DNA from: Candidatus Pacearchaeota archaeon
Lineage (GTDB): Archaea > Nanobdellota > Nanobdellia > Pacearchaeales > GW2011-AR1
Length of the DNA: 45,408 nt
Direction: 5' to 3'
Assembly: GCA_023137045.1 (NCBI GenBank)
Contig: JAGLQB010000002.1
Location: 1 to 45,408, forward strand
Shown here piece by piece: positions 7,640 through 44,572 of this stretch. Position 1 is the stretch's first letter. Each line of letters starts with the position of its first letter. The notes beneath the pieces are model-generated. The model saw only the letters and a list, made by a program, of their open reading frames with translations, did no database searches and had not been told where the DNA came from. The translations under genes were made by a program, and so were the position numbers.

Positions 7640-7671
7640 TCTTTTAAATGAAAATATCTCTTTAAAAATAT

Positions 7672-7760: not shown

Positions 7761-7810
7761 TATTCATAAACTTTATTAAATAAGATTTCACTATTATTAT
7801 TAAAATATCT

Positions 7811-27299: not shown

Positions 27300-27350
27300 T
27301 AAAATTGTTTAAGATGGTGAATATATTAAAATGGTATTTCTTTGAATAAA

Positions 27351-28481: not shown

Positions 28482-29191
28482 AAGCAATCATCATAAATGC
28501 TGGGCTAGGAAAAAGAATGAAAGAACTAACAAAAGATAAACCCAAGTGTCTAATAAAATTAGTTGAGGAAGAAACTATTCTTGGAAGACAATTGAGTATG
28601 TTAAAAGATAATGGTTTAAAAAGTATTATTATTCTTACTGGATATTTTAGTGATAAGATTAAAGGATATGTGAAGGAAAACTTTTCCCAACTTGATGTAG
28701 AATATATCTTTAATCCTTTTTACTCAAAAACAAATTATATTTATACATTGTCTTTAATAGCAGATGAAAAAATAGATGATAATGTAATTTTGATGCATGG
28801 TGATATGGTGTTCAATAAAACTCCTTTTAAAAGATTAATAAATTCAGCATATAATGATGCCGTTCTTATGAGCAAAGAAATAAAATCTGAAAAAGACTTT
28901 AAAGGAAGGGTGGAAAAAGGAATTATTAGTAAGATTGGAGTAAATGTTTTTGGAGATAATTGTTTTTTCTTGGCCCCAATTTATAAGATGTCTAAAGATA
29001 ATTTTTTATTATGGCTTGATAAAACAAGAGATTTTGTAAAAAGAGGAGAAACAAAAGTTTATGCAGAAAACGCATTCAATGAAATTTTTTCTACCATAAA
29101 ATTAAAACCTGTTTATTTTACTGAACTTTGCAATGAAATAGATACTGAACAAGACTTGATTAAAATTAAAAATGAGATTTACAAGAGATAA
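28478..29191 (+). CDS. LicC/PntC-like nucleotidyltransferase (GT-A-like NTP_transf fold)
   Basis: MKAIIINAGLGKRMKELTKDKPKCLIKL is the G-x-G-x-R nucleotide-binding loop of sugar/phosphocholine nucleotidyltransferases. ATGA overlap with ppd. Confidence 0.75.
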   Translation: MKAIIINAGLGKRMKELTKDKPKCLIKLVEEETILGRQLSMLKDNGLKSIIILTGYFSDKIKGYVKENFSQLDVEYIFNPFYSKTNYIYTLSLIADEKIDDNVILMHGDMVFNKTPFKRLINSAYNDAVLMSKEIKSEKDFKGRVEKGIISKIGVNVFGDNCFFLAPIYKMSKDNFLLWLDKTRDFVKRGETKVYAENAFNEIFSTIKLKPVYFTELCNEIDTEQDLIKIKNEIYKR

Positions 29192-29192
29192 A

Positions 29193-30320: not shown

Positions 30321-31103
30321 ATTATTTTTTTTGTCTACGTCTTCTAATCTTTTTAATTCCCTGTAGAAATTTTTAAAGAACAAAGGTACAAATAAAATAA
30401 CTGTAACAATTAAGAACCAATGTACTACATTAAAGATTATTGCCCAAAAAAATAAAGACTTCTGCATATATTGTGGCTTAAATATACTATGCAACCATTT
30501 TAATTTTCCAGGAGTTGTTTTTTCTTTTCTTGCTTTGTTTATTAGTTTTATTTTTCCTGATTGTATCAGCGAGTCATATACCCTTAATTTAATCACTTGA
30601 TCTAAAGAGAATACTATTGTAAGAACCACTCCTGCATAAAAATAGTAAATTTGATCAAATCTCATCCAAGCTCCAACACCAATACCAAAGAATATTGATA
30701 TTCTGATTAAAAAATGAGAAAGATCCTCTAAATAAAGCCCTGTTACAGAACCTTCTTTTTTTCCTTTCCTCCACATCCAATATCTTGCTACTTCTCCGTC
30801 AGAATGGTCTATGATGGCAGCAAGATTAAATAAGATAAGGAAACTTATGCTCGCCCAGTATTGTCCAGACCATAAAAGAATTGTAGAAGCTACCCCAAGA
30901 AATATCCATAAATAAGAAACCATGTTAGCAGAAATTCCAAGATGCAAAAAAAGTTTAGTAAGATAAACAGAAAATTTAGTAAAAATTCTTACTCTTATGT
31001 CTTTCTTTTTATTTTCTTCTCTTTCTTTACTCCAAACAATTTTCCTCATTTCAGGAATTGTTAATTCTGATAATTTTTTTTCTTTTAGTTTTTCAAGATC
31101 CAT
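30312..31103 (-). CDS. CDP-alcohol phosphatidyltransferase-family membrane protein (divergent)
   Basis: 6-7 TM helices with IIDHSDGEVARYW (DxxDGxxAR) followed by ...GLYLEDLSH. The spacing between the two halves of the motif is longer than canonical. Its 3' end overlaps the convergent ADH gene by 9 nt. Confidence 0.6.
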   Translation of the reverse strand: MDLEKLKEKKLSELTIPEMRKIVWSKEREENKKKDIRVRIFTKFSVYLTKLFLHLGISANMVSYLWIFLGVASTILLWSGQYWASISFLILFNLAAIIDHSDGEVARYWMWRKGKKEGSVTGLYLEDLSHFLIRISIFFGIGVGAWMRFDQIYYFYAGVVLTIVFSLDQVIKLRVYDSLIQSGKIKLINKARKEKTTPGKLKWLHSIFKPQYMQKSLFFWAIIFNVVHWFLIVTVILFVPLFFKNFYRELKRLEDVDKKNNLK

Positions 31104-31179: not shown

Positions 31180-31704
31180 TTATTCTTTATCGTATAAATC
31201 TCTCCGTTCGATTATCATCGCGGGACCATAAGAATTATTAATTTTTATATAATCTCTAATGACCTCTTGGGAATTTTTAGGTTCATAAATTGGGAATTTA
31301 ATCATCTCTCTAAAAGCTTCTGTAAAATCTTGTGTATGCTGGGCACCAGGATTAAGAGGGATCTTTGAGCCAATGACGGCTCTGATTATTACTGGTGTTT
31401 TAAATTGATCTTTTGACATTGATCCAAGTTTATCCAGATGATTAACTATTCCATCTAATGCATTGAGAACAAAATCATGTCTTTCAAAAAAGATAACTGG
31501 TCGGTAACCTTCCAGAGACATACCAATTCCAAGACCCATCATTAAATTTTCTGCAAGAGGAGTTTCTATTTTTTTATCTCTGGGAACATCACTAAGTGTA
31601 CCATAAGCTTTTGAGCCAAAACATACATTGTACCCTAAGAAAACTGTATTTTTCTCTTTGACCAGCATTTCCATTGATTTTTTGATCGCTTCTCGATATG
31701 TCAT
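31180..31704 (-). CDS. ThDP-enzyme Pyr-domain subunit (E1-beta/transketolase-like, truncated; no C-terminal domain)
   Basis: MTYREAIKKSMEMLVKEKNTVFLGYNV...ETPLAENLMMGLGIGMSLEGYRPV resembles an E1-beta N-domain. The start is taken at 31704 (TAG-G-ATG junction with the alpha subunit); the track start is 31740. Confidence 0.65.
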   Translation of the reverse strand: MTYREAIKKSMEMLVKEKNTVFLGYNVCFGSKAYGTLSDVPRDKKIETPLAENLMMGLGIGMSLEGYRPVIFFERHDFVLNALDGIVNHLDKLGSMSKDQFKTPVIIRAVIGSKIPLNPGAQHTQDFTEAFREMIKFPIYEPKNSQEVIRDYIKINNSYGPAMIIERRDLYDKE

Positions 31705-31705
31705 C

Positions 31706-32332
31706 CTAAAAACTATTGCCTCCTGCTTTAAATCCTCCAAAATCTACCCAATTTCCAGTACCAACATGAGGATATGTTGCTATGTAGTGATATCTTTTAA
31801 CACAGTTAGGCCAGATCATTTTTGATTTCCCATATCTCGAACTTTTGGGCGTTTCTACAGATCTATCATTATCTTCTATAATAAATGTACAAGGAAGATT
31901 ATAGCCATCAACATACCTCACAGCTTCATAAAAATGCCCTTCATCTTCTGCACCATCTCCAACAAAGCACCAAACATTTCTTTTGCTATTTTTTTTCTTC
32001 AATGCTAAAGCAACACCTACTGCTGTAACAGGTATGCCTGCCACAATTGATGATGTCAAAAAATTTAGTTCTTTATCAAAAACATGCATACTGTCCCCTC
32101 TTATTATCATTTTTTCTAAATTTGTTTTAGACCCACCTGCAAGCAAGTAATGATAATGTGAGCGATGAGTAGAAAATACATAATCTCCTTCCTTCACTTC
32201 TTCAAATATTTTAATTAACTGTTCTTCATTCCCTCCACAAAGATGAACAGGATAAGGTATTTTTGCCTCTTCCCAAAGTCTGGCAATATTTTTTTCAAAA
32301 TTTATCAGTTCTTGTTTTGTTATAACTTCCAT
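31706..32332 (-). CDS. ThDP-enzyme PP-domain subunit (E1-alpha-like, miniature 208 aa)
   Basis: ThDP-binding motif VWCFVGDGAEDEGHFYEAVRYVDGYNLPCTFIIEDND (GDG-x26-ND). It is much shorter than canonical E1-alpha. Confidence 0.65.
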   Translation of the reverse strand: MEVITKQELINFEKNIARLWEEAKIPYPVHLCGGNEEQLIKIFEEVKEGDYVFSTHRSHYHYLLAGGSKTNLEKMIIRGDSMHVFDKELNFLTSSIVAGIPVTAVGVALALKKKNSKRNVWCFVGDGAEDEGHFYEAVRYVDGYNLPCTFIIEDNDRSVETPKSSRYGKSKMIWPNCVKRYHYIATYPHVGTGNWVDFGGFKAGGNSF

Positions 32333-32333
32333 T

Positions 32334-33392
32334 TTATATAAAATTATCTTGCTGTTCTGGATTTTTGACTCTATGAAGATACCTATTAATCACATCTAGC
32401 CTACACCCTTTTCTACAATTTTTAACCCCTTTTTCTTCTAGCTTTTGTAAGATCTTTTTCCGTTTATCTCCTTTCCAAATTTCCTCAAATTTGTTTTCAT
32501 ACAAATTCCCATAAGTAAATTCTGGGTTATCATAAAAAAGATTACAAGGGATAACATTCCCTTTCGCGTCTATTAAAGTAATAAATGGAAGCCCGTAACA
32601 TTTTGGATAGTTATTTCCATCCTCAATTCGTTCAATTGTTGCACGCCTAAATTTAATCTGAAAATCATCAGAATTAAATACTTTTAATTTTCCTTCAAGT
32701 TCATTATACTTAGCAGGATTTACAATTAAATTATTCAAACTACTTGGATGATGAGAATATGGTTTTACTTGTAAATTATCGACACCAATACTCTTTAATA
32801 TTTTAGCTAACTTTACTGCTTCTCCTTTATTTTGAGGAATCATTAGAAATTGAGCTCCAATTATTGTTTTCAAATTATTCTGATTTCTAAATTTTACAGA
32901 CTCTTCAGCATTTGCAATCACTTTTGTAAAATCTTTCTTGTCAGTTCCATGAATAAATGCATAATTTTCAGGACTTCCAGAATCTATACTAAATCTTATC
33001 CAAGAAAGATTTGGAAGACATTCTTTTATTTTATCATTAGTAAATGCCAACCCATTAGTTGTTATAGAAACATCCATACCATACTGTTTAGCTTTTGTTG
33101 TGAATAAACCAATATTCTTATGAAGTGATGGTTCACCTTCTCCAGCAAACATAACAGATTTTACTCCCATATTTGCCATATCTTCTAATGTACGAACTAT
33201 TATCTCTTTGTCTATAAAACTTTTCCCCTTTTCTAAAAAGTCTAAAGCACAAAAAATACACTTATGATTACAAGCATTTGTTAGTCCAATTTCAACATAA
33301 ATAGGATAACAATCTCCTTCTTTTTTCCATTCAGTAGTTCTTTCTGGATGATACATCAGTTTGTGATAATCTATGTCTGGTTGGTTTGTCAT
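32334..33392 (-). CDS. Radical SAM enzyme with Cys-rich C-terminal (twitch/SPASM-like) region, non-B12 type A
   Basis: LTNACNHKCIFCA (CxxxCxxC), FAGEGEPSL and ITTNG, with C-terminal GNVIPC...CRKGC. The track start at 33422 is a TTG; the ATG at 33392 is preferred. Confidence 0.8.
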   Translation of the reverse strand: MTNQPDIDYHKLMYHPERTTEWKKEGDCYPIYVEIGLTNACNHKCIFCALDFLEKGKSFIDKEIIVRTLEDMANMGVKSVMFAGEGEPSLHKNIGLFTTKAKQYGMDVSITTNGLAFTNDKIKECLPNLSWIRFSIDSGSPENYAFIHGTDKKDFTKVIANAEESVKFRNQNNLKTIIGAQFLMIPQNKGEAVKLAKILKSIGVDNLQVKPYSHHPSSLNNLIVNPAKYNELEGKLKVFNSDDFQIKFRRATIERIEDGNNYPKCYGLPFITLIDAKGNVIPCNLFYDNPEFTYGNLYENKFEEIWKGDKRKKILQKLEEKGVKNCRKGCRLDVINRYLHRVKNPEQQDNFI

Positions 33393-33538
33393 TTTTAAAA
33401 GATATGTTTCATTTGGTATCAAAACAAATTTATAAATTTATATGTGCTGGATTAATAATCCTTTTGAATTGGTGGTGAATTACAATAATGTTTATATATT
33501 TTTTATCACAAAAATATGAATCTCTTTTAAAGAAAAAT

Positions 33539-34551: not shown

Positions 34552-35625
34552 ATGGCAGACACAAACCCTAATTATAGTTCTTTGAAAATAGTTTGGCATA
34601 AAAAAAAACTCGAATCTTTATTAAAGAATGAGATTACTGCACCAATAACAGTCAGAGTCAAACCTACAAATAAGTGCAACCACAATTGTTTTTATTGTGG
34701 TTATCAAAAAGATAAAGAACAAATTCTTTCTGAAACTTTTAGAAAAAAAGACGAAATTCCTAGGGAAAAAATGATGGAGATTTTAGATGATTTTAATGAT
34801 ATCGGTGTAAAAGCCGTTACTTATTCTGGAGGTGGAGAACCATTAATTTATCCTTATATTTTAGAAGCAATGAAAAAAACTATCGGTTTTGGAATAGATT
34901 TATCCATTATAACAAATGGACAAGAACTCAATGATGAAAAAGCAGAAATCTTGGCCCAATCAGAATGGGTAAGAATATCTATAGATGCTTGCAATGCTGA
35001 AACTTTTAATAGAATTAGAAAGAAACCCCAAAAGTGGTTTTATGAAATTAGGGATAATATTAAAAATTTTTCAAAAATAAAAAAACAAGATTGCGAATTA
35101 GGAATTAATTTTGTTGTTAATCATTTGAATGCTTCTTCAGTCTATGAAGCCACAAAATACTTTAAACAATTGGGAATAAATCATATAAAATTTACACCGA
35201 GATGGTTACAGACAAATTTTCATGCATATCATCAGCCATTTAAACAATCAGTAATAGAGCAGATTTCTCAAGCAAGAGAACTTGAAGAAGCAAATTTTCA
35301 GGTATATGACACTTATGAGAATGATTTTAAATTTGCTGGAGTTAAAGAAAGAAGTTACCAAAGATGTTTTTTTATGGAAATTACTCCAGTTATTGGGGCA
35401 GATTGCAATATCTATGATTGTCATGATAGGGCTTACACATTGGACGGAAAAATTGGTTCAATACAAGATAAATCTTTCAAACAAGTTTGGTTTAGTGAAA
35501 AGACCGCAAACAGATTTAAGAGTTTTAATCCGATTGAAAGATGTAAACATCATTGTACTTATGATGCGAGAAATCTCTTAGTAGAAAATATTTTAAAATG
35601 CAGCAAAAGCAAAAATTACCCCTGA
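34552..35625 (+). CDS. Radical SAM enzyme with Cys-rich C-terminal region, non-B12 type B (paralogue of 32334-33392)
   Basis: PTNKCNHNCFYCGY, YSGGGEPLI, IITNG and RISIDA, with C-terminal DCNIYDC...CKHHC. It is collinear with the other non-B12 rSAM. Confidence 0.8.
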   Translation: MADTNPNYSSLKIVWHKKKLESLLKNEITAPITVRVKPTNKCNHNCFYCGYQKDKEQILSETFRKKDEIPREKMMEILDDFNDIGVKAVTYSGGGEPLIYPYILEAMKKTIGFGIDLSIITNGQELNDEKAEILAQSEWVRISIDACNAETFNRIRKKPQKWFYEIRDNIKNFSKIKKQDCELGINFVVNHLNASSVYEATKYFKQLGINHIKFTPRWLQTNFHAYHQPFKQSVIEQISQARELEEANFQVYDTYENDFKFAGVKERSYQRCFFMEITPVIGADCNIYDCHDRAYTLDGKIGSIQDKSFKQVWFSEKTANRFKSFNPIERCKHHCTYDARNLLVENILKCSKSKNYP

Positions 35626-36278: not shown

Positions 36279-37469
36279 TTAGAGATAATTATTTGAATTC
36301 TTTGATTTAATGCATTTCTCGAAAAAGTCTTCTAATCTTGGTAAATTTTTTTCTATATTGTAGTCTTCTCTCGCTCCAATTACTTTTTTCTCTAATTTTT
36401 TATAGTTTATTTTTTTTAGTTTTAATCTTAAATTATTAAGGTCTTTTTTGGAAACACCTAAATTTATTTTATACTTTTTTAAAATTTTATCTTGATACTC
36501 TAATAGAGAACTCCAATAGATAAGGGGTATCCCTGCTTCTAGATATGAAGCCATTTTATTTGAAGTACAAGTAGTAACTATTTCTTTATTCAATATTTTA
36601 AGATCATACATAGGAAAACTGTACCCAAAGTCATATTTAGAAATTTCTTTAACAATTTCAGTCGGTCCTAATGGCTTATGCAAATGAAAATATCTATTTT
36701 TTAATAATGCCTTATATTTTTTAGAATGTTTGATAGAATTATACTGCCCACTGTAAATATGTAAATGCATTTTTTGTTTTAATAATATTGTACTTATGGA
36801 GTCTTTGTCTGATTCTAAATCAGATGAAGCTAAGCTTCCCATACTGCCAACATAAACCAAATGTATCTCTTTATCTTTTTTAGATAATTTATTTTTATTT
36901 ATTGGAACTACAAACTCTTTAGAACAGTAAGGAGGAAAACTTATTACTGGGCATTTAATCTTAATTTTTTTCTTTACAAATTCATACTCTCCTCCTTTAA
37001 AGATTATCCCGTCAGAGTTTTCAAATAAATATTTCTCAGCTTTTAATTCAAAAATTGGAATTCCTGCTTTTTTATAATCTTCTTTTTTTCTATACTTTAA
37101 AGCATTTACATCGTAAGGGAAAAAAATAAAAGGGATATTTTTTATAATTTTTCTTGTTAAAGCAGGTAACCATAAGGGGTAAGGTGCAGCTGTTCCTATA
37201 ACTACATAAGGATTTAATTTTTTTATTTCAAATATTTTTCTTAGAATTTGTGGACTTTTTTTTATTAGATTTATCCCATTTTTAATATTTATACTAAATG
37301 AGTCTAAATTCAAATCTATGATTTTATCATAAGCTGATTTATAAAAATCTTTATTGAACTTTAAGAAACTAATCAAAACTATTTCGTATCCTTTTTCTTT
37401 TAATGCTCTGGCCCTCTTAAAACCAACTATATTCGGGCTTGCTTCAACAAAAACTATCTGTTTTTTCAT
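36279..37469 (-). CDS. Hypothetical protein, two-Rossmann (GT-B-like) architecture; possible glycosyl- or phospho-transferase
   Basis: 396 aa. The N-terminal beta-alpha-beta region (IVFVEASPNIVGFKRARALKEKGYEIVLI) and the C-terminal half (HLVYVGSMG..., NKMASYLEAGIPLIYW) recall GT-B enzymes. No catalytic motif could be confirmed. Confidence 0.35.
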   Translation of the reverse strand: MKKQIVFVEASPNIVGFKRARALKEKGYEIVLISFLKFNKDFYKSAYDKIIDLNLDSFSINIKNGINLIKKSPQILRKIFEIKKLNPYVVIGTAAPYPLWLPALTRKIIKNIPFIFFPYDVNALKYRKKEDYKKAGIPIFELKAEKYLFENSDGIIFKGGEYEFVKKKIKIKCPVISFPPYCSKEFVVPINKNKLSKKDKEIHLVYVGSMGSLASSDLESDKDSISTILLKQKMHLHIYSGQYNSIKHSKKYKALLKNRYFHLHKPLGPTEIVKEISKYDFGYSFPMYDLKILNKEIVTTCTSNKMASYLEAGIPLIYWSSLLEYQDKILKKYKINLGVSKKDLNNLRLKLKKINYKKLEKKVIGAREDYNIEKNLPRLEDFFEKCIKSKNSNNYL

Positions 37470-37470: not shown

Positions 37471-39072
37471 TTAAAAATTATGTCTGATTTTAGAATAATA
37501 TTTTTTAAAAATACTTAGTATTGGATAATAATTATTCTCTACTTTTTTAAGAAAACTCACCATGCGATAACGCATTTTACATTCCCTGCACATAATAAAA
37601 TAACTGTAAAGTAATCTATTTTTAATGCAAAAATTTTTATACAATATTTCCTTTTTACAATAAGGGCATTTAATCTTCACTTCATAATTATTTTCTTTAA
37701 TTTTCTTTACTGATAAGGGAATTATGTATTTACGATATTTTCTTTGTGCTTTAAAGATTTCATGTTTAACAATCTCAAATTCTTTATCAGTCATACTATT
37801 AGTCATATTCTCCCAAATGCCTGAATACATCTTATTTGCTATAAAGTCTAATTTGTTTTTTATTATTCTTTTTTCTATACAATGCTCATAAATAGAACTT
37901 TTTGGGTATGGTTGGATAAAATATAACGAAACTTGGCCCTTACATTTTTTCTTCCAATAATCAAGTGTTTCGTAAGCAGTTTCTCTGGTTTCTGCAATAT
38001 CTCCAAAAATAAAATTTGCTTGAATACCCATCTTAAACTCAAAAGACAGATTAATCACTTTATCAATTTGTTGAGGTGTTATTGGTTTTTTCATACTTTT
38101 AAGAATTGTCGAACTCATACTTTCAAATCCCCAACTTACTATTTCACATCCAGCTTCTTTTATTGTTTTAAACATTTCTCTATCTGCATTTATTACAGAT
38201 AATTGGCAACTCCATTTAAGTTTTTGTTTAGTTTCTCTTTGAAGTTTTTTAATTTCTCGACAAAATTCATATAATCTTTTTTTATTAATTGAGAATAAAT
38301 CATCATAAAGAAGAAGACAATTGATTTTATAATTTTTTATGGCCATTTTAATTTCTTCTATAATATTTTTAATAGATCTTATTCTATGTTTATCTCCAAG
38401 AACATGATAACAAAAAGTGCAGTTGAAAGGACATCCCCTACTCCCAAGTATTGAATAAGATTTAGGATTATCAAGTAAATTATTAACAAAATGTTCATTT
38501 GTGTGCATATTATTAATTTGTTCTTTAATTCCGAAATTCTCAAAATTTGGGAAAGGTATAGAATCAAGATTAGTTATTAAAGTCCGTTTATTAGTAGAGC
38601 AAACTTTGTTTTCCTCAAAGAATATGATTCCATCAACTTTTTCTAAATTTCCTTTTTTTTCTAAACATTTCAAAAGTTCTATTATGGTTACTTCCCCTTC
38701 TCCGATTATCCCAAAGTCGGGTTTTAATGAATTAAACATTAATGTTGGTTCACTTGTTATTATAGCCCCCCCTAAGATTATTTTTGGTTTTGATACATGA
38801 GAACGAACAGAGTCTATAATTTCTTTAACTACATTATAACCAATTCCAGAATGTCCTGTTAAAATAAAATCATATCGTTTTTTATCTAAAAAATTCTTTA
38901 TTATATTTTTGATAGTTCCATCATGATGATTCAAATTTAAAATATCTGGATTATGCCCTTCTTTTTTTAAAACAGCAGAAATATAACCCAATCCTAATGG
39001 AAATGTATAATTATAATCAATTTTATTTGTATTATTATATCTTGGAACAATCAACAGCAATCTCATTTTCAT
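37471..39072 (-). CDS. Cobalamin-binding-domain radical SAM enzyme (class B) #3 with C-terminal zinc-ribbon tail
   Basis: B12-like N-domain (LLLIVPR...FPLGLGYISAVLKKEGHNPDILN...GGAIITS), then SRGCPFNCTFCYH, LYDDLF and WGFESM. The C-terminus has CPYCKK-x19-CRECK. Confidence 0.85.
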   Translation of the reverse strand: MKMRLLLIVPRYNNTNKIDYNYTFPLGLGYISAVLKKEGHNPDILNLNHHDGTIKNIIKNFLDKKRYDFILTGHSGIGYNVVKEIIDSVRSHVSKPKIILGGAIITSEPTLMFNSLKPDFGIIGEGEVTIIELLKCLEKKGNLEKVDGIIFFEENKVCSTNKRTLITNLDSIPFPNFENFGIKEQINNMHTNEHFVNNLLDNPKSYSILGSRGCPFNCTFCYHVLGDKHRIRSIKNIIEEIKMAIKNYKINCLLLYDDLFSINKKRLYEFCREIKKLQRETKQKLKWSCQLSVINADREMFKTIKEAGCEIVSWGFESMSSTILKSMKKPITPQQIDKVINLSFEFKMGIQANFIFGDIAETRETAYETLDYWKKKCKGQVSLYFIQPYPKSSIYEHCIEKRIIKNKLDFIANKMYSGIWENMTNSMTDKEFEIVKHEIFKAQRKYRKYIIPLSVKKIKENNYEVKIKCPYCKKEILYKNFCIKNRLLYSYFIMCRECKMRYRMVSFLKKVENNYYPILSIFKKYYSKIRHNF

Positions 39073-39083: not shown

Positions 39084-41378
39084 TTAATCAATTCCCCCAA
39101 CTTTTCTTAAAATTTCCTCTATCTCTTTTTCATCCATTCTTTTTGTTATATCTGAAGTGAATGGCCTATATGGAGAGCGATTTAATCCTTGATTACTATG
39201 AAGTTTAATTATAAATTTTCCATCTTTTTCCATTGTATCTTTACATTCAAAATCTGCAATTAAGCACTCATCTTTTTTTTCTCCGGGTCTCTCGCCAATA
39301 ACTTTTACTGGAACTTTCCCTCTACTCACAACCTTAGCCACATCTCCAATAAGGGCAGCATCCATTTTTGTTGAAATTATCTCTTCTTCATTTCCATTAC
39401 ATAACGCATAGAAAATTAAGTCTATGGAATCATCCAAAGTAAATAAAAATCGTGTCATGTTTGGATCTGTAACCCCTATCTCTGTATTTCTTTCATATTT
39501 TTCTTTCCATTTTGGAATTACAGAACCAGTAGTCATCAACACATTTCCATACCTTACAGTCAGAAATTTTGTTTTTAAATCTCCTTTTGTCCTTGCTGCT
39601 TCACAGAAAAGTCTTTCCATGAGAGATTTACTCATACCATACACATTTATCGGAGCACAAGCTTTGTCTGTGGAAATTGCCAAACAAATCTTTACATTTT
39701 TTTCATCTTTGACAGCATTAATCACATTCATAGAACCTATAACATTTGTTTTCAAACATTCCATAACTTGGTCTTCAGCAATATCCACATACTTAAATGC
39801 AGCAGCATGTATTACAATATCAACTTCTCTTACCGCATCTCTTATTGAGTGATAGTCTTTTATATCTCCTATAAGGTACCCCATTTTGTTATGCCCATGT
39901 CTTTTTTTAACTTTGTCCTGTTTTTCTTCATCTCGATTGAAGATTATTATTTTTTTAGGATCATATTCAAGAAATCTTTTAATAAGAGCTCGCCCTAAAG
40001 CACCTGCTCCCCCTGTAATAAGGATTGTTTTGTCTTTGATTATTTCTTTAATTTTTTCTATCTCTGTTTCATTCTGATTTAGATTAGTATCAAAAAATAA
40101 GGGGTTATCTCTTCCGATTGTGTGGCTTGCAGGTTTATATTTAGCCACTATTCTCTCCCTCTCTTTTAATAATTGCTCAGAAGATAAAGCTTTTGTTCTG
40201 ATTTTTGATTCTGTTTTTCCCCCTGCATGTATGTATGCAAATGCCTCCCCTTCCATAAAAATATCCAAATCTGGATTGCCTTTATCTAGTCCCTCTCTTA
40301 TCGCTGTCCCTTTAAATGGCGCATAAACAGCTATTTGAAAATCATCTATCCCACTTTCACGAATGAATTTCTCTGTTTCTTTGATAGTTTCCATTGTTTC
40401 TCCAGGGAGACCAAGCATGAAAAAAGCTCTAACTCTTATTCCTCGTTCTTTCATCAATCTCACAAAATTGTAATTTTGTTCAACAGTTGTTTGTTTTTTA
40501 ACATTATCTAATATTTTTTGGCTCCCTGATTCTGCTCCAAATCCTATCTCTACACATCCTGTATTAGCCAACAAATCTGCAAATTCCTCATCCATAAACT
40601 TTGCATGCCCATTGCATTTGTAAGTTATTCCTCTTTTTTTTAGTTCTTCTACATAAGGTTTCACACTGTTCAATGAAAGAGTAAATAAATCATCAATTAT
40701 ATAAATTCCATTAAAACCTAATGCTTCTATATCATCAAACTCTTTTTTTGCATTTTCAAGAGAGGTTTTTCTTATCGGAGTATTAGAATTCTCACAAAAA
40801 GTACATTGCATTGGGCATCCCCTACCACTTAAAAAAGTTGTTGCTTTTCGTTTATCTTTACCAAAAGTATGGGTATATGATCTCATTAAATTTGAAAATC
40901 CCAATCTATCTGGCCGAGGCATTGAATCATAATCTTCACCATTTTTTATGATATCAAATAAAATTCTTTGATTAGCTCTACCTTCAACTATTTCAAGCAA
41001 AGATCTTTCCCCGTCCCCTGTTATAATATAATCCCAAGGTTCTTCTTTAATCTCATTAAGGTAAAAATGTGCATGAGGACCTCCTGCCACAATGATTTGC
41101 TGTTTTTGGGTTTTTAATTCTGTTTTTAAATAATTCAATAATTTGCTTGCTTGCTGTTTTTGAGGAGTCATTATACTAACTCCAATAACATCATAGATAG
41201 AATAATCAATTATTTTTTGTTCTTGAGAATCATTAAAAGCATCTTCTATATCTACATGATGTCCATGTTTTTTCAGATTTGCTGCAAGATATAGTAATCC
41301 CATTGGCGGATAAATTCTGTCATTATCTAAAAAAGGACTCCTTAAACTTACCAACAGGACTCTTTTGTTTTTTTCCAT
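39084..41378 (-). CDS. Fusion protein: class B (cobalamin-domain) radical SAM enzyme #4 + CapD/PseB/FlaA1-type nucleotide-sugar 4,6-dehydratase
   Basis: Residues 1-~425 (nt ~40100-41378): PPMGLLYLAANLKKHGHHVDIED, GGPHA, GRGCPMQCTFC, IIDDLF and FGAESG. Residues ~450-764 (nt 39087-~40031): ILITGGAGALGRA, NRDEEKQ, HAAAFKYVDIAE, TNVIGSMNV, STDKACAPINVYGMSKSLME and RYGNVL. Confidence 0.85.
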   Translation of the reverse strand: MEKNKRVLLVSLRSPFLDNDRIYPPMGLLYLAANLKKHGHHVDIEDAFNDSQEQKIIDYSIYDVIGVSIMTPQKQQASKLLNYLKTELKTQKQQIIVAGGPHAHFYLNEIKEEPWDYIITGDGERSLLEIVEGRANQRILFDIIKNGEDYDSMPRPDRLGFSNLMRSYTHTFGKDKRKATTFLSGRGCPMQCTFCENSNTPIRKTSLENAKKEFDDIEALGFNGIYIIDDLFTLSLNSVKPYVEELKKRGITYKCNGHAKFMDEEFADLLANTGCVEIGFGAESGSQKILDNVKKQTTVEQNYNFVRLMKERGIRVRAFFMLGLPGETMETIKETEKFIRESGIDDFQIAVYAPFKGTAIREGLDKGNPDLDIFMEGEAFAYIHAGGKTESKIRTKALSSEQLLKERERIVAKYKPASHTIGRDNPLFFDTNLNQNETEIEKIKEIIKDKTILITGGAGALGRALIKRFLEYDPKKIIIFNRDEEKQDKVKKRHGHNKMGYLIGDIKDYHSIRDAVREVDIVIHAAAFKYVDIAEDQVMECLKTNVIGSMNVINAVKDEKNVKICLAISTDKACAPINVYGMSKSLMERLFCEAARTKGDLKTKFLTVRYGNVLMTTGSVIPKWKEKYERNTEIGVTDPNMTRFLFTLDDSIDLIFYALCNGNEEEIISTKMDAALIGDVAKVVSRGKVPVKVIGERPGEKKDECLIADFECKDTMEKDGKFIIKLHSNQGLNRSPYRPFTSDITKRMDEKEIEEILRKVGGID

Positions 41379-41478
41379 TTTAATTTTGTTATTCTTATAA
41401 TATATAAGGATTTTGTTTCTATATTATCACTTTATTGTTGGTAGAAAGTTATAAAATACTTATATTCGAATCTTATAT

Positions 41479-42417
41479 ATGAGAGAATTAACTAAAAAAG
41501 ATACCATTCTAATAACTGGGGGAAGTGGATTACTTGGTTCAAACTTAGCAGTTTTTTTGGGAGATAAATTTAATGTTTACTTTTTGTACAATAAAAATTT
41601 TGTGAAATTGCCAAATTGTGAAGGAATTAAAATCGATTTGACTAATTTTGAAGAAACAAAAAAATTAATATTAAAAGTTAAGCCAAAAATTATAATTCAT
41701 TGTGCAGCATTAACAAATGTTGATTATTGTGAAGAAAAACCCCATGAAGCAGAGTTAATCAACTCGCAAACAACAAAAAATCTAGCAGAAATTTCGAAAC
41801 AGATTAATAGCAAACTAATTTATATCTCTACAGATTCTGTTTTTGACGGAGAGAAGGGAGATTATTCCGAAGAAGATAAGCCAAATCCAATTAATGTTTA
41901 TGGTAAAACAAAACTAAATGGAGAGAATTATGTTAAAAGTATATGTAAAAATTATACTATAATCAGAACTAATATCTATGGGTGGAATATTCGTGATAAG
42001 TTTAGTTTAGCAGAATGGATTCTAAACAAATTGAAAAAAAATGAAACATTTTTCGGATTTGAAGATATACAATTCACTCCACTTTTGGTGAATAATTTAG
42101 GAAGAATTATTTTCGAAATTTGTATAAAAGATATTAAAGGATTATACCACATTGCAGGTCCAGAAAAATGTTCTAAATTTGATTTCGCGAAAATAATTGC
42201 TGAAGTTTTTTGTCTTAATAAGGATGTGATTAAACTGGGTAACTCTGATTTGGTTAATTTTAAAGCACCAAGACCAAAAAACATAAGTTTAGATACTGAA
42301 AAAATTCAAAATATTTTAAAAACTAATCTTTTTGGGGTTAGAAGAGGATTAGAGGAATTTAAATTTCTTAATGAGAAGGGGTTTGTAAAAATGTTAAAAA
42401 AAGGAGCAGAAATTTAA
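41479..42417 (+). CDS. RmlD-like NAD(P)-dependent sugar 4-ketoreductase (SDR), second copy
   Basis: ILITGGSGLLGSN, HCAALTNVDYCE, STDSVFDG.KGDYSEED and PINVYGKTKLNGE (YxxxK). It is divergent from the rSAM-dehydratase fusion. Confidence 0.75.
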   Translation: MRELTKKDTILITGGSGLLGSNLAVFLGDKFNVYFLYNKNFVKLPNCEGIKIDLTNFEETKKLILKVKPKIIIHCAALTNVDYCEEKPHEAELINSQTTKNLAEISKQINSKLIYISTDSVFDGEKGDYSEEDKPNPINVYGKTKLNGENYVKSICKNYTIIRTNIYGWNIRDKFSLAEWILNKLKKNETFFGFEDIQFTPLLVNNLGRIIFEICIKDIKGLYHIAGPEKCSKFDFAKIIAEVFCLNKDVIKLGNSDLVNFKAPRPKNISLDTEKIQNILKTNLFGVRRGLEEFKFLNEKGFVKMLKKGAEI

Positions 42418-43559
42418 AAAGAAATCCCATCAAATATCTTTTTTAATTTTTTATTCCTAGCCTCAATTGAAAATTCTTTTTCATATTTTTTCCTAGATTC
42501 TTCCCCCATTTTAGTTCTTAAAGAAGGATTTTCCATTAAAATAGAAATATACTCTACAATTTGATTTACCATGCTTTGTGAATTATTTTTATAAATAAAC
42601 TCTGCAAAATTCGTGAAATCATTTGAACTCGGTCCACCATGTTCATACTTTCCTTTCTTTCGCACATTTATTAAAAAACCATTTTTGTCGACTGCATCAG
42701 GTAATCCAAACATATCTGTACCAATTATGGGTAGTCCAGATCCCATTGCTTCAACAAAAGTCATTCCCAATCCAAAATAATTTGGTGCCAAAAAAATATC
42801 ACTTTTAGCGTATATTTTGAGTAATTTGTCTCTGCTTATTAAGGAACAAATTTGAAGTCTGTCTATATTTGTATCAATATCTTTCGGAATATTTGAAAAT
42901 ATTGTTAATTTTATGTTTTGGTATTTTTTGCTTAATATTTTAAATGCTGCTATTGCTTCTCTCCCACCCTTTAAATTGAATATCTTGGGATCTGTTTGAT
43001 GTGATGTTCCGACAAAGATCATATTCACAAATTTGGAGTCTTTTTTTGTTTCTATTTTCGGAATATCTGAAGCAAAGTGAACAACTTCTATTTTATCTTT
43101 AAAAGATGAGACATTAAACTCTTTTTCAATGTTCTTTTTGCCAAATTCAGTAAAGGGCATAATTTTTTTACAATATTTTGAAGATAAAGTTCTCTCTATC
43201 TCTTTTTTCCTCTTTTTCAACAAAGTTCTGTTATTCCCTGCTAAGCATATAGCCTCTTCTAAGTCACACACCCAAGGGAATTTTTTTGTCATCATCACAT
43301 TCGGAGAATATGCAAAATCGACATTTTTTGGGATATTAACAAATTTCTCACTTAATTGTAAGGGGCTTATAATTTTACGCAAAAGATTTTTGTATACAAA
43401 ATTAATAATTTTATTTTTTTTTAATGTGTTAATTTTGTGGAGATCAATCTTGTTTTTTTCAACCACAAATCTATAACCTTCTGGGGGATTTTTTATTAAA
43501 TCTTTCCAAATAGCATGGAGATTACTTGAGGGTATGTTAAAAAGTATTTTTTTAACCAT
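42414..43559 (-). CDS. GT4-family (GT-B) glycosyltransferase
   Basis: The C-terminal half has FLAPNYFGLGMTFVEAMGSGLPIIGTDMFGLPD (an EX7E-like motif region). Confidence 0.75.
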   Translation of the reverse strand: MVKKILFNIPSSNLHAIWKDLIKNPPEGYRFVVEKNKIDLHKINTLKKNKIINFVYKNLLRKIISPLQLSEKFVNIPKNVDFAYSPNVMMTKKFPWVCDLEEAICLAGNNRTLLKKRKKEIERTLSSKYCKKIMPFTEFGKKNIEKEFNVSSFKDKIEVVHFASDIPKIETKKDSKFVNMIFVGTSHQTDPKIFNLKGGREAIAAFKILSKKYQNIKLTIFSNIPKDIDTNIDRLQICSLISRDKLLKIYAKSDIFLAPNYFGLGMTFVEAMGSGLPIIGTDMFGLPDAVDKNGFLINVRKKGKYEHGGPSSNDFTNFAEFIYKNNSQSMVNQIVEYISILMENPSLRTKMGEESRKKYEKEFSIEARNKKLKKIFDGISF

Positions 43560-43672
43560 ATCAATTTCTAGAAAAAAGTATTTATATACTTTTATGAGAT
43601 TTTTTTAGATTTTCCCAAACAAATTTGCTTATTTTTTAAATCTCAATTTATCACTTTTTAATATCCCATGTT

Positions 43673-44521
43673 TCATTTCCAAACTTCTCCTAAATAAACA
43701 GCCCTGAATATCCCTTTAGCATATCCAAAGAATTTTATAGAATAAAATTTAATTACATTTTTTAATGAAAACTTATTTTTCTCCAATTTAATTTTTAGGG
43801 ATTTTAATAAAACTATCAAGGGAAGGGATATAAACAAAACTAAGACACTGAAATAATTGATTAAAGGAATTCTAAAAATTAAGTATCTTTCTTTCCAGCT
43901 TGCCCCAATCCATTTAGATTGTTTGTAAGTTTCTTTTAATGTGTCCGGATTTCTGTGATAACAAGTTGTATTTTTAGCAATTACTGGTTTTATTTTATAC
44001 TTAAACCAAAAGGTTTGGTCATCGGCATATCCATATTTTGGATCAAATCCCCCTAATTCTAAAAATTTATCTTTTCTAATTGCCCTGAATATTTTTACAT
44101 TTTTAGCAGAGTCTTTAGATACTCTTATTTTCCCCCATAATGCACCCCAAACATTATCTGTATTGGTGGCGATTTCATAATCATGAGTGGTGCCAATCAT
44201 CTTTCCTGTTTTATCTTCTAAAATAGGTTTTATAAGATTCTTAAGATAGTTTTTATCGAAAGCCATATCTGCATCAATAAAGATAAGAATATTCCCTAAC
44301 GCATTTTTTGCCCCAAAATTTCTTGCAGCACCAGGACCTTGGTGATTTTGTTTTAGAATTTTGATTTTATATTTTTCAGCAAGTTTGATTGTGCTATCTG
44401 TCGAACCGTCATCAACAATGACAATCTCTACATTTTTAATACTTTGAGATCTGAGAGACTTTAAACAATCTTCGACGTCTTTTTCTTCATTATAAGTAGG
44501 AATTATCACTGAAACATTCAT
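43673..44521 (-). CDS. GT2-family glycosyltransferase with C-terminal TM segments
   Basis: VSVIIPTYNEEKDVEDCL...IVIVDDGSTDST...GPGAARNFG...IFIDADM. The track start at 44539 is a GTG; the ATG at 44521 is preferred. Confidence 0.8.
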   Translation of the reverse strand: MNVSVIIPTYNEEKDVEDCLKSLRSQSIKNVEIVIVDDGSTDSTIKLAEKYKIKILKQNHQGPGAARNFGAKNALGNILIFIDADMAFDKNYLKNLIKPILEDKTGKMIGTTHDYEIATNTDNVWGALWGKIRVSKDSAKNVKIFRAIRKDKFLELGGFDPKYGYADDQTFWFKYKIKPVIAKNTTCYHRNPDTLKETYKQSKWIGASWKERYLIFRIPLINYFSVLVLFISLPLIVLLKSLKIKLEKNKFSLKNVIKFYSIKFFGYAKGIFRAVYLGEVWK

Positions 44522-44572
44522 ATTTATGTTACAATCCACTTATATTTAAATATACTCTCGATATCTTTTGTT

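What the first reader, a model, noticed from the sequence alone, without database searches (positions are those of the whole stretch)
39084..41378. In-frame fusion of a class B radical SAM enzyme to a CapD/PseB-type nucleotide-sugar 4,6-dehydratase
A single 764-aa ORF joins a complete B12-domain rSAM (residues 1-~425) to a complete short-chain dehydratase of the PseB/FlaA1/CapD type (TGGAGALGRA, NRDEEKQ, HAAAFKYV, STDKACAPINVYGMSK). A linker of about 25 aa connects them, and there is no stop or frameshift. The fusion argues that the radical enzyme acts directly on the NDP-4-keto-6-deoxy-hexos(amin)e made by its own C-terminal domain, for example by C-methylation or rearrangement. An RmlD-like 4-ketoreductase (41479-42417) is transcribed divergently from the same 100-bp intergenic region. 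This completes a dehydratase/reductase pair analogous to WbvB/WbvR or CapE/CapF-type 2-acetamido-2,6-dideoxyhexose routes. I am not aware of this domain architecture being described.
Basis: partly seen in the sequence, partly recalled or inferred. Interest (0 to 1): 0.75.

Follow-up and report, generated by a model that had tools for sequence, protein, structure and literature searches.

The report
Radical SAM enzyme fused to sugar dehydratase
A tiny archaeon carries a real, evolutionarily maintained gene that welds an uncharacterised radical SAM enzyme onto the first enzyme of a 6-deoxy-amino-sugar pathway; related fusions elsewhere show that this enzyme family performs an unknown radical step on activated cell-surface sugars.

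Summary
Window 39084-41378 (-) is one 764-aa ORF with a B12-binding-like domain, a radical SAM core and a PseB-type UDP-GlcNAc 4,6-dehydratase domain. It is not an artefact. Three contigs carry the identical protein. An 82%-identical orthologue keeps the frame despite many synonymous changes and an in-frame junction indel.

The join is end-to-end with no inserted linker, and AlphaFold2 predicts no fixed domain interface.

The architecture is rare. I found two 90% clusters among 5.8 billion and none among the 150 best of 1.84 billion representatives.

The same rSAM family (hundreds of stand-alone members) is also fused to an RmlD-like reductase (P0002) and to a PseG-like UDP-sugar hydrolase (P0244). 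It lies unfused beside PseB-like/RmlD-like genes in close DPANN relatives. In some bacteria and a Woesearchaeote it lies inside pseudaminic/legionaminic-acid-like clusters.

The rSAM therefore most likely modifies a UDP-2-acetamido-2,6-dideoxyhexose intermediate.

The chemistry is unresolved. C-methylation is favoured. An AprD4/AprD3-style radical dehydration is a serious rival, because cobalamin-free AprD4 is the nearest solved structure.

I found no literature on this family. I rate it a new variant of a known kind.

The parts
39084..41378 (-). 764-aa fusion ORF: radical SAM family 'rSAM_A' joined to a PseB-type dehydratase
   Evidence: the identical protein is on 3 contigs
40989..41312 (-). 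N-terminal Rossmann-type B12-binding-like domain (aa 23-130), including the conserved GVSIMTPQ and AGGPH motifs
   Evidence: PF02310 scores 52.7 bits against a cut-off of 32.1. Invariant columns are in A1. Actual cobalamin binding was not tested.
40362..40826 (-). Radical SAM core (aa 185-339). The CxxxCxxC cluster motif CPMQCTFC lies at aa 188-195 (nt 40794-40817).
   Evidence: PF04055 E 6e-23. C188, C192 and C195 are invariant in 19 homologues. Motif positions.
40038..40118 (-). Junction (aa 421-447): the native C-terminal tail of the rSAM runs straight into the native N-terminal tail of the dehydratase
   Evidence: Alignment A2. pLDDT is about 63 here. There is an in-frame 3-codon indel relative to P0001.
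39087..40037 (-). PseB/FlaA1-type extended-SDR 4,6-dehydratase domain (aa 448-764). Motifs: TGGAGALG at 455-462, S-T-D-K at 569-572, YGMSK at 580-584.
   Evidence: PF02719 E 3e-79. TIGR03589 PseB 270 bits. PDB sequence hits WbjB/CapE/FlaA1. Fold TM 0.84-0.92.
41379..41478 (.). 100-bp AT-rich divergent intergenic region shared with the RmlD-like gene
   Evidence: No promoter analysis was possible because the organism is an archaeon.
41479..42417 (+). RmlD-like NAD(P)H 4-ketoreductase (312 aa). Its orthologue is fused to the rSAM in P0002.
   Evidence: PF04321 E 2e-61. TIGR01214 scores 201.8 against a cut-off of 224. It is 59% identical to the C-terminal half of P0002.
37471..39072 (-). Second B12-domain radical SAM gene (533 aa), 11 nt downstream in the same operon
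   Evidence: Function unknown.
36279..37469 (-). GT-B-like glycosyltransferase (396 aa), last gene of the operon. Its orthologue follows the PseB-like gene in L002 and L005, and a GT4-like gene follows it in L089.
   Evidence: It is not PseG-like.
42414..44539 (-). GT1-family (42414-43559) and GT2-family (43673-44539) glycosyltransferases, syntenic with the locus in L001 and L003

Best explanation
**What it is.** This is a genuine, selected gene fusion in a DPANN-type archaeon. It produces a bifunctional enzyme of surface-glycan precursor synthesis.

**Proposed pathway.**
1. The C-terminal PseB-type domain converts UDP-GlcNAc into a UDP-2-acetamido-2,6-dideoxy-hexos-4-ulose. This is inferred from family membership and intact catalytic motifs.
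2. The N-terminal radical SAM domain belongs to a widespread, uncharacterised family that I call rSAM_A. It carries out a radical tailoring step on that UDP-linked 6-deoxy-HexNAc scaffold. This is inferred from alternative fusions and conserved gene neighbourhood.
3. The divergently transcribed RmlD-like enzyme reduces the 4-keto group.
4. The co-operonic and syntenic glycosyltransferases use the product.

**Chemistry.** The most likely reaction is cobalamin-dependent C-methylation of an unactivated carbon of the sugar, or of its N-acetyl group. This is the weakest link. I give it about 0.4 on its own.

**Tether.** The two halves are linked flexibly. The benefit of the fusion is most likely stoichiometric co-expression and proximity, not a rigid channel.

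**What the confidence covers.** The stated confidence (0.6) is for 'a real fusion whose rSAM half acts on a UDP-6-deoxy-HexNAc intermediate of the same pathway'. It does not cover the specific chemistry.
For: **The fusion is real and maintained.**

**Both halves look functional.**
- The cluster cysteines and 66 family-invariant positions are retained.
- The dehydratase half has TGGxGxxG, S-T-D-K and YxxxK.
- The AlphaFold2 model has mean pLDDT 93.6.
- Its folds match WbjB/CapE/Pen/FlaA1 at TM 0.84-0.92 and rSAM enzymes at 0.6-0.73.

**Fusion-partner (Rosetta-stone) evidence for the pathway link.**
- P0002 is rSAM_A fused to an orthologue of the window's RmlD-like protein, followed by a separate PseB-like gene and the same GT.
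- P0244 is rSAM_A fused to a PseG-like UDP-sugar hydrolase.
- P0356 is a PseB-like-RmlD-like fusion.

**Gene neighbourhood.**
- Of the 7 distinct loci (window included) whose rSAM is at least 58% identical to the window's, 6 have PseB-like and/or RmlD-like genes within two genes. They occur in five different arrangements, in the window, L001, L002, L003, L005 and L091.
- The fused dehydratase belongs to a tight subclade at 61-76% identity, after which identity drops to about 45%.
- Distant orthologues lie between NeuB/PseI-like and PseF-like genes, next to PseG-, PseC- and PseH-like genes, or next to a LegB-like dehydratase. In Magnetococcales they lie next to DegT, a SPASM rSAM and a methyltransferase.

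**For methylation specifically.**
- The N-domain passes the Pfam B12-binding threshold. It aligns with the cobalamin-dependent families PhpK, QCMT, HpnR and BzaD over both domains, whereas the AprD4 model aligns only over the core.
- By my own reasoning, 3-deoxygenation would remove the hydroxyl that becomes the ring oxygen of a nonulosonic acid. An AprD4-type reaction at that position therefore does not fit the NulO-cluster orthologues.
Against: - There is no biochemical evidence of any kind.
- The nearest solved structure, by sequence (E 1e-17) and by fold (TM 0.71-0.73), is AprD4. AprD4 binds no cobalamin and is a sugar diol dehydratase (PMC12931638).
- No NCBIfam model reaches its cut-off for either half.
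- One close relative (L090) has no SDR within 7 kb.
- Two members of the PseB-like subclade (L088, L089) have no rSAM_A nearby.
- Many bacterial orthologues show neither PseB-like nor NulO genes with my BLAST probes.
- AlphaFold2 gives no confident interface (pTM 0.67).
- The window and 6 kb beyond it contain several other rSAM genes and SDRs, so partner assignments inside the island are not unique.
Confidence: 0.6

Rival explanations
1. AprD4/AprD3-style radical deoxygenation. The rSAM half does not use cobalamin. It abstracts a hydrogen from a UDP-6-deoxy-HexNAc, eliminates a vicinal hydroxyl to give a keto-deoxy sugar, and the RmlD-like reductase (the AprD3 counterpart) reduces the ketone. 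The product would be a further deoxygenated sugar such as a 3,6-dideoxy-HexNAc. This rival concerns the chemistry only and is compatible with the pathway-level statement of the best explanation.
For: - AprD4 is the best PDB match by sequence (6fd2, E 1e-17) and by fold (TM 0.71-0.73, similar length, no extra C-terminal domain).
- AprD4 also has a Rossmann-like N-domain, yet binds no cobalamin (PMC12931638).
- It acts on a 2-amino sugar and needs a partner NAD(P)H ketoreductase. This parallels the rSAM-RmlD-like fusion P0002 and the rSAM/SDR pairs in L003 and L086.
Against: - The AprD4 family model scores only 73.8 bits against a cut-off of 500 and aligns only with the core. Cobalamin-dependent family models score higher and span both domains.
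- The TM-score margin over TsrM, QCMT, CysS and TokK is small.
- By my own reasoning, loss of the C3 hydroxyl is incompatible with the pyranose ring of a nonulosonic acid. The reaction would therefore have to differ in the NeuB-linked orthologues.
Confidence: 0.25
2. The window enzyme is the entry point of a modified pseudaminic-acid-like nonulosonic acid pathway, as in the bacterial orthologues. The remaining genes (PseC/H/G/I/F-like) would lie elsewhere in the genome.
For: - Orthologues sit between NeuB/PseI-like and PseF-like genes, with PseG-, PseC- and PseH-like neighbours (L085, L086).
- In a DPANN Woesearchaeote (L017) the orthologue lies with NeuB, a cytidylyltransferase, a LegB-like SDR and a PseG-like gene.
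- P0244 fuses the rSAM to a PseG-like domain.
- PseB is the first enzyme of that pathway.
Against: - No NeuB, CTP_transf_3, DegT or PseG-like gene occurs anywhere in the 45-kb window or the 6 kb beyond it.
- The conserved partners in close relatives are an RmlD-like reductase and glycosyltransferases, which indicates a 4-hydroxy 6-deoxy-HexNAc used directly.
Confidence: 0.15
3. The fusion has no mechanistic meaning. A deletion between two neighbouring genes of one glycan island joined them, and the rSAM acts on something else, such as a lipid-linked or protein-linked glycan, a phosphonate or a peptide.
For: - The join is a simple end-to-end one. L005 shows the probable precursor arrangement, with rSAM, a 60-nt gap, then PseB.
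- No interface is predicted.
- The island has a phosphonate module and many other rSAM genes.
- Many bacterial orthologues have no detectable SDR neighbour.
Against: - Three different fusion partners, all enzymes that act on UDP-6-deoxy-HexNAc, have been joined to the same rSAM family in separate lineages.
- The linkage persists through gene-order changes.
- The fusion is maintained under purifying selection at 82% identity.
Confidence: 0.1
4. Assembly or sequencing artefact: a frameshift or chimeric join of two separate genes.
For: Most homologues of each half are stand-alone proteins.
Against: - The identical ORF appears in three contigs from independent assemblies.
- A diverged orthologue from another sample has the same fusion, an in-frame indel at the junction and abundant synonymous changes.
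- The alternative frames are closed by stops.
Confidence: 0.02

Closest known systems
PseB/FlaA1 (H. pylori HP0840, PDB 2GN4) and its relatives WbjB/FnlA (4J2O), CapE (3W1V) and Pen (6BWC): UDP-GlcNAc 4,6-dehydratases of the Polysacc_synt_2 extended-SDR family
   Same: - The C-terminal half has the same fold (TM 0.84-0.92).
- It has TGGxGxxG, S-T-D-K and YxxxK with Tyr, as in PseB.
- It has the same length as the stand-alone enzymes.
   Different: - It scores below the equivalog cut-offs: PseB 270 against 408, FnlA 231 against 730.
- It is covalently preceded by a 435-aa radical SAM enzyme.
- It belongs to a DPANN subclade only about 45% identical to generic family members.
- Whether it inverts or retains configuration, and its nucleotide specificity, are unknown.
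AprD4/AprD3 of apramycin biosynthesis: a radical SAM 1,2-diol dehydratase plus an NADPH reductase that together 3'-deoxygenate an aminosugar (PDB 6FD2)
   Same: - It is the nearest solved structure to the rSAM half.
- It has a two-domain layout with a Rossmann-like N-domain.
- It acts on a 2-amino sugar.
- It works with a partner ketoreductase.
   Different: - Sequence identity is only 19%, and the family model is far below its cut-off (73.8 against 500).
- AprD4 acts on a pseudodisaccharide, not a nucleotide sugar.
- It is not fused to any partner.
- It binds no cobalamin, whereas the cofactor status here is unknown.
Cobalamin-dependent radical SAM C-methyltransferases that act on sugars or nucleotide-activated substrates: GenK and GenD1 (gentamicin) and Fom3 (cytidylyl-2-hydroxyethylphosphonate). 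These comparisons rest on my own knowledge and on the reviews PMC9204698 and PMC12931638.
   Same: - The domain composition is the same: B12-binding plus radical SAM.
- They tailor unactivated carbons of carbohydrate-like substrates.
- Fom3 uses a nucleotide-activated substrate.
   Different: - I found no detectable specific sequence relationship, and no family model reaches its cut-off.
- None is known to be fused to an SDR.
- None has been described acting on a UDP-6-deoxy-HexNAc or in a nonulosonic-acid pathway.
WbvB/WbvR/WbvD (UDP-L-QuiNAc) and CapE/F/G or FnlA/B/C (UDP-L-FucNAc) routes. These comparisons rest on my own knowledge.
   Same: A PseB-family dehydratase followed by an RmlD-like 4-reductase, as in the window. 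The P0356 fusion of the two supports the pairing.
   Different: - No 2-epimerase (WbvD/CapG type) and no cupin-containing CapF type is present in the window.
- The catalytic Tyr is retained, unlike the Met of CapE and WbjB.
- A radical SAM step is added.
DesII: a radical SAM enzyme that acts on TDP-4-amino-4,6-dideoxy-D-glucose after a 4,6-dehydratase and an aminotransferase. This comparison rests on my own knowledge.
   Same: It is a precedent for a radical SAM enzyme working on a nucleotide-linked 6-deoxy sugar downstream of a 4,6-dehydratase.
   Different: DesII has no B12-like domain, is not fused to a partner, and belongs to a different rSAM subfamily.

Membership tests
Radical SAM superfamily | CxxxCxxC motif that ligates the [4Fe-4S] cluster, within a partial TIM-barrel core | tested here: met
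   CPMQCTFC at aa 188-195. The three Cys are invariant in 19 homologues. PF04055 E 6e-23. The model folds as an rSAM core.
Class B (cobalamin-dependent) radical SAM | N-terminal Rossmann-type B12-binding domain recognised by PF02310 | tested here: met
   52.7 bits against a gathering score of 32.1, aa 23-130. PhpK, QCMT, HpnR and BzaD models align across both domains.
Class B (cobalamin-dependent) radical SAM | Actually binds and uses cobalamin | not testable with these tools
   There is no sequence motif for base-off binding. The nearest structure is cobalamin-free AprD4, with the cobalamin enzymes TsrM, QCMT, CysS and TokK close behind (PMC12931638).
AprD4 family radical SAM diol dehydratase (NF033070) | Score at or above the curated cut-off (500 bits) over the full length | tested here: not met
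   73.8 bits, core region only (aa 178-368).
PseB, inverting UDP-GlcNAc 4,6-dehydratase (TIGR03589) | Equivalog score cut-off (407.75 bits) | tested here: not met
   270.2 bits. The stand-alone subclade member in L005 scores 269.7.
PseB, inverting UDP-GlcNAc 4,6-dehydratase (TIGR03589) | NAD(P)-binding TGGxGxxG, catalytic Asp-Lys pair (S/T-D-K) and Tyr-xxx-Lys | tested here: met
   TGGAGALG at 455-462, STDK at 569-572, YGMSK at 580-584. Fold TM 0.89 to 2GN4.
FnlA/CapE/WbjB-type 4,6-dehydratase/5-epimerase (TIGR04130) | Cut-off of 730 bits. Met replaces the SDR catalytic Tyr, as seen in the aligned CapE and WbjB sequences. | tested here: not met
   231.5 bits. The query has Tyr where 4J2O and CapE have Met (alignment).
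RmlD dTDP-4-dehydrorhamnose reductase (TIGR01214), for the neighbour at 41479-42417 | Equivalog cut-off of 224 bits | tested here: not met
   201.8 bits, so it is RmlD-like but not an equivalog. Pfam RmlD_sub_bind is clearly met.
Pseudaminic acid pathway (PseB-C-H-G-I-F) | PseC aminotransferase, PseH acetyltransferase, PseG hydrolase, PseI synthase and PseF cytidylyltransferase encoded together with PseB | tested here: not met
   None is in the 45-kb window or 6 kb beyond it. They are present around distant orthologues of the rSAM. The rest of the genome was not seen.

The most novel reading that the evidence does not exclude
rSAM_A defines a previously unrecognised radical tailoring step that acts at the nucleotide-sugar level. 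The step would be shared by 6-deoxy-HexNAc pathways of DPANN archaea and by pseudaminic/legionaminic-acid-like pathways of bacteria. It would yield a new class of C-alkylated sugars: 6-deoxy-hexosamines and nonulosonic acids that are branched, chain-extended or altered in the N-acyl group. The three alternative fusions (to PseB-like, RmlD-like and PseG-like enzymes) would mark the steps it sits between.
Probability: 0.3. Interest if true: 0.8.

Novelty: new variant of a known kind. Interest (0 to 1): 0.6.

Why it matters
Radical SAM enzymes with a B12-type domain are among the largest groups of enzymes with unknown function. Very few are linked to a defined substrate.

This fusion and its two sister fusions pin one large orphan family to a specific, purchasable starting substrate, UDP-GlcNAc, and to a short pathway. 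The family has hundreds of members in DPANN and Asgard archaea, Omnitrophota, Acidobacteria and Magnetococcales, and one on a phage-like contig. That makes its chemistry directly testable in vitro with a single polypeptide.

If the product is a new modified 6-deoxy-amino sugar or nonulosonic acid, it would extend the known repertoire of microbial surface sugars. Pseudaminic and legionaminic acids matter for motility, immune evasion and phage recognition. It would also show what ultra-small symbiotic archaea display on their surface.

If the enzyme instead proves to be an AprD4-like dehydratase, it would be the first to act on a nucleotide sugar.

Tried and rejected
1. **Artefact hypothesis.** Rejected on multi-assembly support and the codon-level comparison.

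2. **Search for more rSAM-dehydratase fusions.**
- The word-indexed search from the full protein found only P0001 with this partner.
- The same search from the PseB half found none.
- The exhaustive search of 1.84 billion representatives found none among the best 150.
- The long hits were intein-bearing homologues, the PseG-like fusion and a PseB-RmlD fusion.
- Caveat: the window's own 90% cluster is represented by a 225-aa fragment, so representative-based searches can hide fusions.

3. **NulO genes in the window.** All 45 ORFs of at least 100 aa were scanned and 6 kb beyond the window were inspected. I found none. The GT-B-like gene at 36279-37469 was tested as a possible PseG and rejected.

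4. **Deciding cobalamin use from structure.** Fold searches with the full model and the rSAM-only model rank AprD4 first, but only marginally ahead of the cobalamin enzymes. The result is inconclusive.

5. **Inter-domain interface.** AlphaFold2 with an 83-sequence alignment gives high pLDDT per domain but pTM 0.67 and a low-confidence tether. No PAE or coordinates were available, so I could not judge how the active sites are oriented.

6. **Literature.** Six searches found nothing on this family or architecture. They combined radical SAM or B12 with nonulosonic, pseudaminic or legionaminic acid, with pseB/pseG/neuB, or with nucleotide sugar. A seventh search, combining DPANN with radical SAM, glycosyltransferase and S-layer, also found nothing relevant. 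The first attempt failed on a syntax restriction.

7. **Context of bacterial orthologues.** BLAST probes detected NulO or SDR neighbours in only about a third of the loci. Magnetococcales and Acidobacteria contexts were annotated by Pfam. They are glycan clusters but lack PseB-like genes.


Full report
**1. Observation**

The window contains a single 764-aa ORF at 39084-41378 on the minus strand.

| Source | Domain or family | Residues | Score |
|---|---|---|---|
| Pfam | B12-binding | 23-130 | 52.7 bits, cut-off 32.1 |
| Pfam | Radical_SAM | 185-339 | E 6e-23 |
| Pfam | Polysacc_synt_2 | 452-723 | E 3e-79 |
| NCBIfam | PseB (C-terminal half) | | 270 bits, cut-off 408 |
| NCBIfam | FnlA (C-terminal half) | | 231 bits, cut-off 730 |
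| NCBIfam | PhpK, HpnJ, BchE, QCMT, AprD4 and others (N-terminal half) | | all far below cut-off |

- The gene at 41479-42417 (+), divergent across 100 bp, is RmlD-like: Pfam E 2e-61, TIGR01214 201.8 bits against a cut-off of 224.
- Downstream in the same operon lie a second B12-domain rSAM gene (37471-39072) and a GT-B-like gene (36279-37469).

**2. Is the fusion real?**

- The identical protein is recorded from NCBI, ENA and Logan and lies on three contigs, including an ENA contig of 101.7 kb and a Logan re-assembly of 25.9 kb.
- P0001 (761 aa, 82% identity) comes from a different JGI metagenome, was also re-assembled by Logan, and has the same architecture and the same neighbours.
- In a codon-by-codon comparison, synonymous differences outnumber non-synonymous ones in both halves: 63 against 44 in the rSAM core and 77 against 47 in the dehydratase half.
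- The junction is the most variable stretch and carries an in-frame 3-codon indel.
- Both alternative frames are closed by 6 and 9 stops across the junction.
- An assembly or frameshift artefact is therefore excluded for practical purposes.

**3. Anatomy of the junction**

- In an alignment with stand-alone homologues, the free rSAM proteins end at the position of window residues 434-436 ('...FFNTSLK*').
- The free PseB-like proteins start 'MDFEEDV...GKSILITGGAGALG', at the position of window residues 436-455.
- The fusion is thus an end-to-end join of two complete proteins. There is no inserted linker domain.
- Locus L005 shows the likely precursor state: rSAM, a 60-nt gap, then PseB-like on the same strand.
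- AlphaFold2 with an 83-sequence alignment gives mean pLDDT 93.6 but pTM 0.67, with pLDDT about 63 at residues 420-440. This indicates two well-defined bodies on a flexible tether and no confidently predicted interface.

**4. How common is the architecture?**

- From the full protein, the word-indexed search of 5.8 billion clusters returned only P0001 with the same architecture.
- From the PseB half, none of the 120 best hits is fused.
- In the exhaustive HMMER search of 1.84 billion representatives, no protein among the best 150 matches both halves.
- The long hits are other things:
  - intein-bearing rSAM homologues;
  - a PseB-like protein with an intein;
  - a PseB-like-RmlD-like fusion (P0356);
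  - an rSAM with a 345-aa tail (P0244).
- The architecture is therefore very rare.
- One caveat applies. The window protein's own 90% cluster is represented by a 225-aa fragment, so some fusions may be hidden in representative-based searches.

**5. The rSAM half belongs to a large orphan family with informative partners**

- Hundreds of stand-alone proteins of about 420-450 aa share 44-67% identity with the N-terminal half. They come from Nanoarchaeota, Pacearchaeota, Woesearchaeota, Thorarchaeota, Omnitrophota, Acidobacteria, Magnetococcales, Lentisphaeria and other groups.
- Nineteen of them share 66 invariant columns, including the three cluster cysteines.
- No NCBIfam model names the family.
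- Two further fusions of the same family exist:
  - P0002 (731 aa) joins it to an orthologue of the window's RmlD-like protein (59% identity). A separate PseB-like gene (71% identical to the window's C-terminal half) and the same GT-B-like gene follow it.
  - P0244 (809 aa) joins it to a PseG-like domain. Its only NCBIfam hit is PseG at 99.5 bits, and it is 29-33% identical to the PseG-like genes of L085 and L086.

Among close relatives (at least 58% identity) the three genes recur in five arrangements:

| Arrangement | Locus |
|---|---|
| rSAM fused to PseB, RmlD divergent | window, L001 |
| rSAM fused to RmlD, then PseB | L002 |
| rSAM, then RmlD, then a SPASM rSAM, then PseB | L003 |
| rSAM, then PseB, then GT | L005 |
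| RmlD divergent; PseB, then rSAM with zero gap | L091 |

- Only L090 lacks an SDR within 7 kb.
- The fused dehydratase belongs to a tight subclade at 61-76% identity, beyond which identity falls to about 45%.
- Two members of that subclade have no rSAM_A nearby.

**6. Distant orthologues**

- In an Omnitrophota genome (L085) and a JGI contig (L086), the orthologue lies between a NeuB/PseI-like synthase and a PseF- or KdsB-like cytidylyltransferase.
- A PseG-like gene lies upstream in both. In L086 there are also an overlapping GalE/RmlB-like SDR and PseC-like, PseH-like and GFO/IDH/MocA genes.
- In a Woesearchaeote (L017) it lies with NeuB, a cytidylyltransferase, a LegB-like dehydratase (416 bits against a cut-off of 475) and a PseG-like gene.
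- In Magnetococcales (L020) the neighbours are a DegT aminotransferase, a SPASM rSAM, a SAM methyltransferase, a GT2 and a PMT_2.
- In an Acidobacterium (L028) the neighbours are a GT1, a GNAT and an SDR.
- All of these contexts are glycan biosynthesis. About a third of the loci have recognisable NulO or SDR neighbours with my probes.
- The window itself has no NeuB, CMP-NulO synthetase, DegT or PseG-like gene in 45 kb plus 6 kb beyond.

**7. The organism and the island**

- The window begins with an archaeal S13-S4-S11-RpoD operon, Rpb4 and DUF655, and its GC content is about 30%.
- The best homologues are from DPANN MAGs.
- Positions 10-45 kb form one large glycan island. It contains:
  - flippase and PMT_2 genes;
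  - several glycosyltransferases;
  - heptose-type genes;
  - a phosphonate module;
  - four B12-domain rSAM genes;
  - two SPASM rSAM genes;
  - two RmlD-like genes.
- More of the same lies beyond the window edge.

**8. Mechanism**

What is shown:
- The protein is a two-enzyme polypeptide with intact motifs.
- It is maintained by selection.
- Its rSAM family is repeatedly fused or adjacent to enzymes whose substrates are UDP-linked 2-acetamido-2,6-dideoxyhexoses.

What is inferred:
- The C-terminal domain makes the UDP-4-keto-6-deoxy-HexNAc.
- The rSAM modifies that scaffold, either at this stage or after reduction or amination.
- The RmlD-like enzyme reduces C4.
- The syntenic glycosyltransferases use the product.

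The radical chemistry is not determined.

For cobalamin-dependent C-methylation:
- The N-domain passes the Pfam B12 threshold.
- The domain aligns with cobalamin-dependent families over both domains, whereas the AprD4 model aligns only with the core.
- Most characterised class B enzymes are methylases (PMC9204698, PMC12931638).
- A methyl group is compatible with later conversion to a nonulosonic acid.

For an AprD4/AprD3-like dehydration-reduction:
- AprD4 is the nearest solved protein by sequence (E 1e-17).
- AprD4 is also the nearest by fold (TM 0.71-0.73, against 0.60-0.69 for TsrM, QCMT, CysS, TokK and OxsB).
- It has a Rossmann-like N-domain without cobalamin.
- It acts on an aminosugar and needs a ketoreductase, which mirrors the rSAM-RmlD fusion.

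Against the AprD4-like reaction at C3:
- The C3 hydroxyl of the hexose becomes the ring oxygen of a nonulosonic acid. This is my own reasoning from the NeuB reaction.

My estimates are about 0.4 for methylation, 0.25-0.3 for dehydration, and the remainder for epimerisation, rearrangement or something else.

**9. Comparison with the known, and novelty**

- The halves are individually familiar: a PseB-family dehydratase and a B12-domain rSAM.
- Radical SAM tailoring of sugars has precedents in AprD4, GenK, GenD1, DesII and Fom3.
- Three things appear to be new:
  - the covalent architecture;
  - its sister fusions;
  - the link they establish between a large orphan rSAM family and UDP-6-deoxy-HexNAc and nonulosonic-acid metabolism.
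- Six literature searches on the enzyme family and pathway, plus one on DPANN surface glycans, found nothing on these points.
- I rate the finding a new variant of a known kind, with interest 0.6. It is not a new principle, but it offers an unusually direct experimental route into an orphan enzyme family and possibly to a new class of surface sugars.

Noticed in passing
window 25460-31103: A phosphonate-type module:
- cytidylyltransferase-like gene (25460-25999);
- cytidylyltransferase-PEP mutase fusion (25989-27299, the Fom1-like architecture);
- TPP-dependent decarboxylase (27342-28481);
- nucleotidyltransferase (28478-29191);
- Fe-alcohol dehydrogenase (29172-30320);
- weak CDP-alcohol phosphatidyltransferase-like gene (30312-31103).

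This suggests phosphonate decoration of the glycan with hydroxyethylphosphonate or a related group. One of the island's other B12-domain rSAMs could be a Fom3-like methylase.
   Followed up: partly
window 14518-15912, 17183-18583, 37471-39072 (B12-domain rSAMs); 32334-33422, 34552-35625 (SPASM rSAMs); one more B12-domain rSAM just beyond the window (L092 3323-4834): Radical SAM genes are unusually dense in one glycan island of a small-genome archaeon: at least five B12-domain and two SPASM-type. Two of them score 228-251 bits against the HpnJ model, below its cut-off. SPASM rSAMs also accompany the rSAM_A/PseB-like genes in L003, L020, L088 and L089.
   Followed up: partly
homologues P0241, P0282, P0113 (also P0097, P0092, P0260): Inteins are inserted inside the CxxxCxxC iron-sulfur motif of rSAM_A homologues. 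The intein starts with Cys and ends in HN, and the +1 residue is the second cluster cysteine. A PseB-like homologue (P0378) also carries an intein with a LAGLIDADG endonuclease.
   Followed up: partly
L087 (ENA scaffold, protein P0008 at 8001-9347): A 50%-identical rSAM_A orthologue lies among glycosyltransferases and methyltransferases on a contig that also carries ribonucleotide reductase, Thy1, dUTPase, ClpP, HNH, LAGLIDADG and a DNA methylase. The contig looks like a large phage or virus.
   Followed up: no
protein P0356 (591 aa): A PseB-like (aa 11-275) plus RmlD-like (aa 331-543) fusion in one polypeptide. Of the three pairings among rSAM, PseB and RmlD, this is the third to be found fused.
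   Followed up: partly
window 7671-7761: ARAGORN reports a 91-nt 'tRNA-???' with a four-base anticodon (ccta), lying between tRNA-Leu and tRNA-Gly. It is probably an intron-containing archaeal tRNA.
   Followed up: no
window 31180-32332; L090 9205-10945; L085 970-2934: A split transketolase/DXP-synthase-like pair (E1_dh/DXP_synthase_N plus Transket_pyr) recurs near rSAM_A loci. It is split in the archaeal loci and fused in Omnitrophota. It may belong to a two-carbon-transfer step in sugar branching.
   Followed up: no
window 10383-11258: The UDP-glucose/GDP-mannose dehydrogenase-like ORF is only 291 aa. It has a partial N-terminal NAD domain (profile positions 70-186) and no C-terminal domain. 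It may be truncated or mis-started.
   Followed up: no
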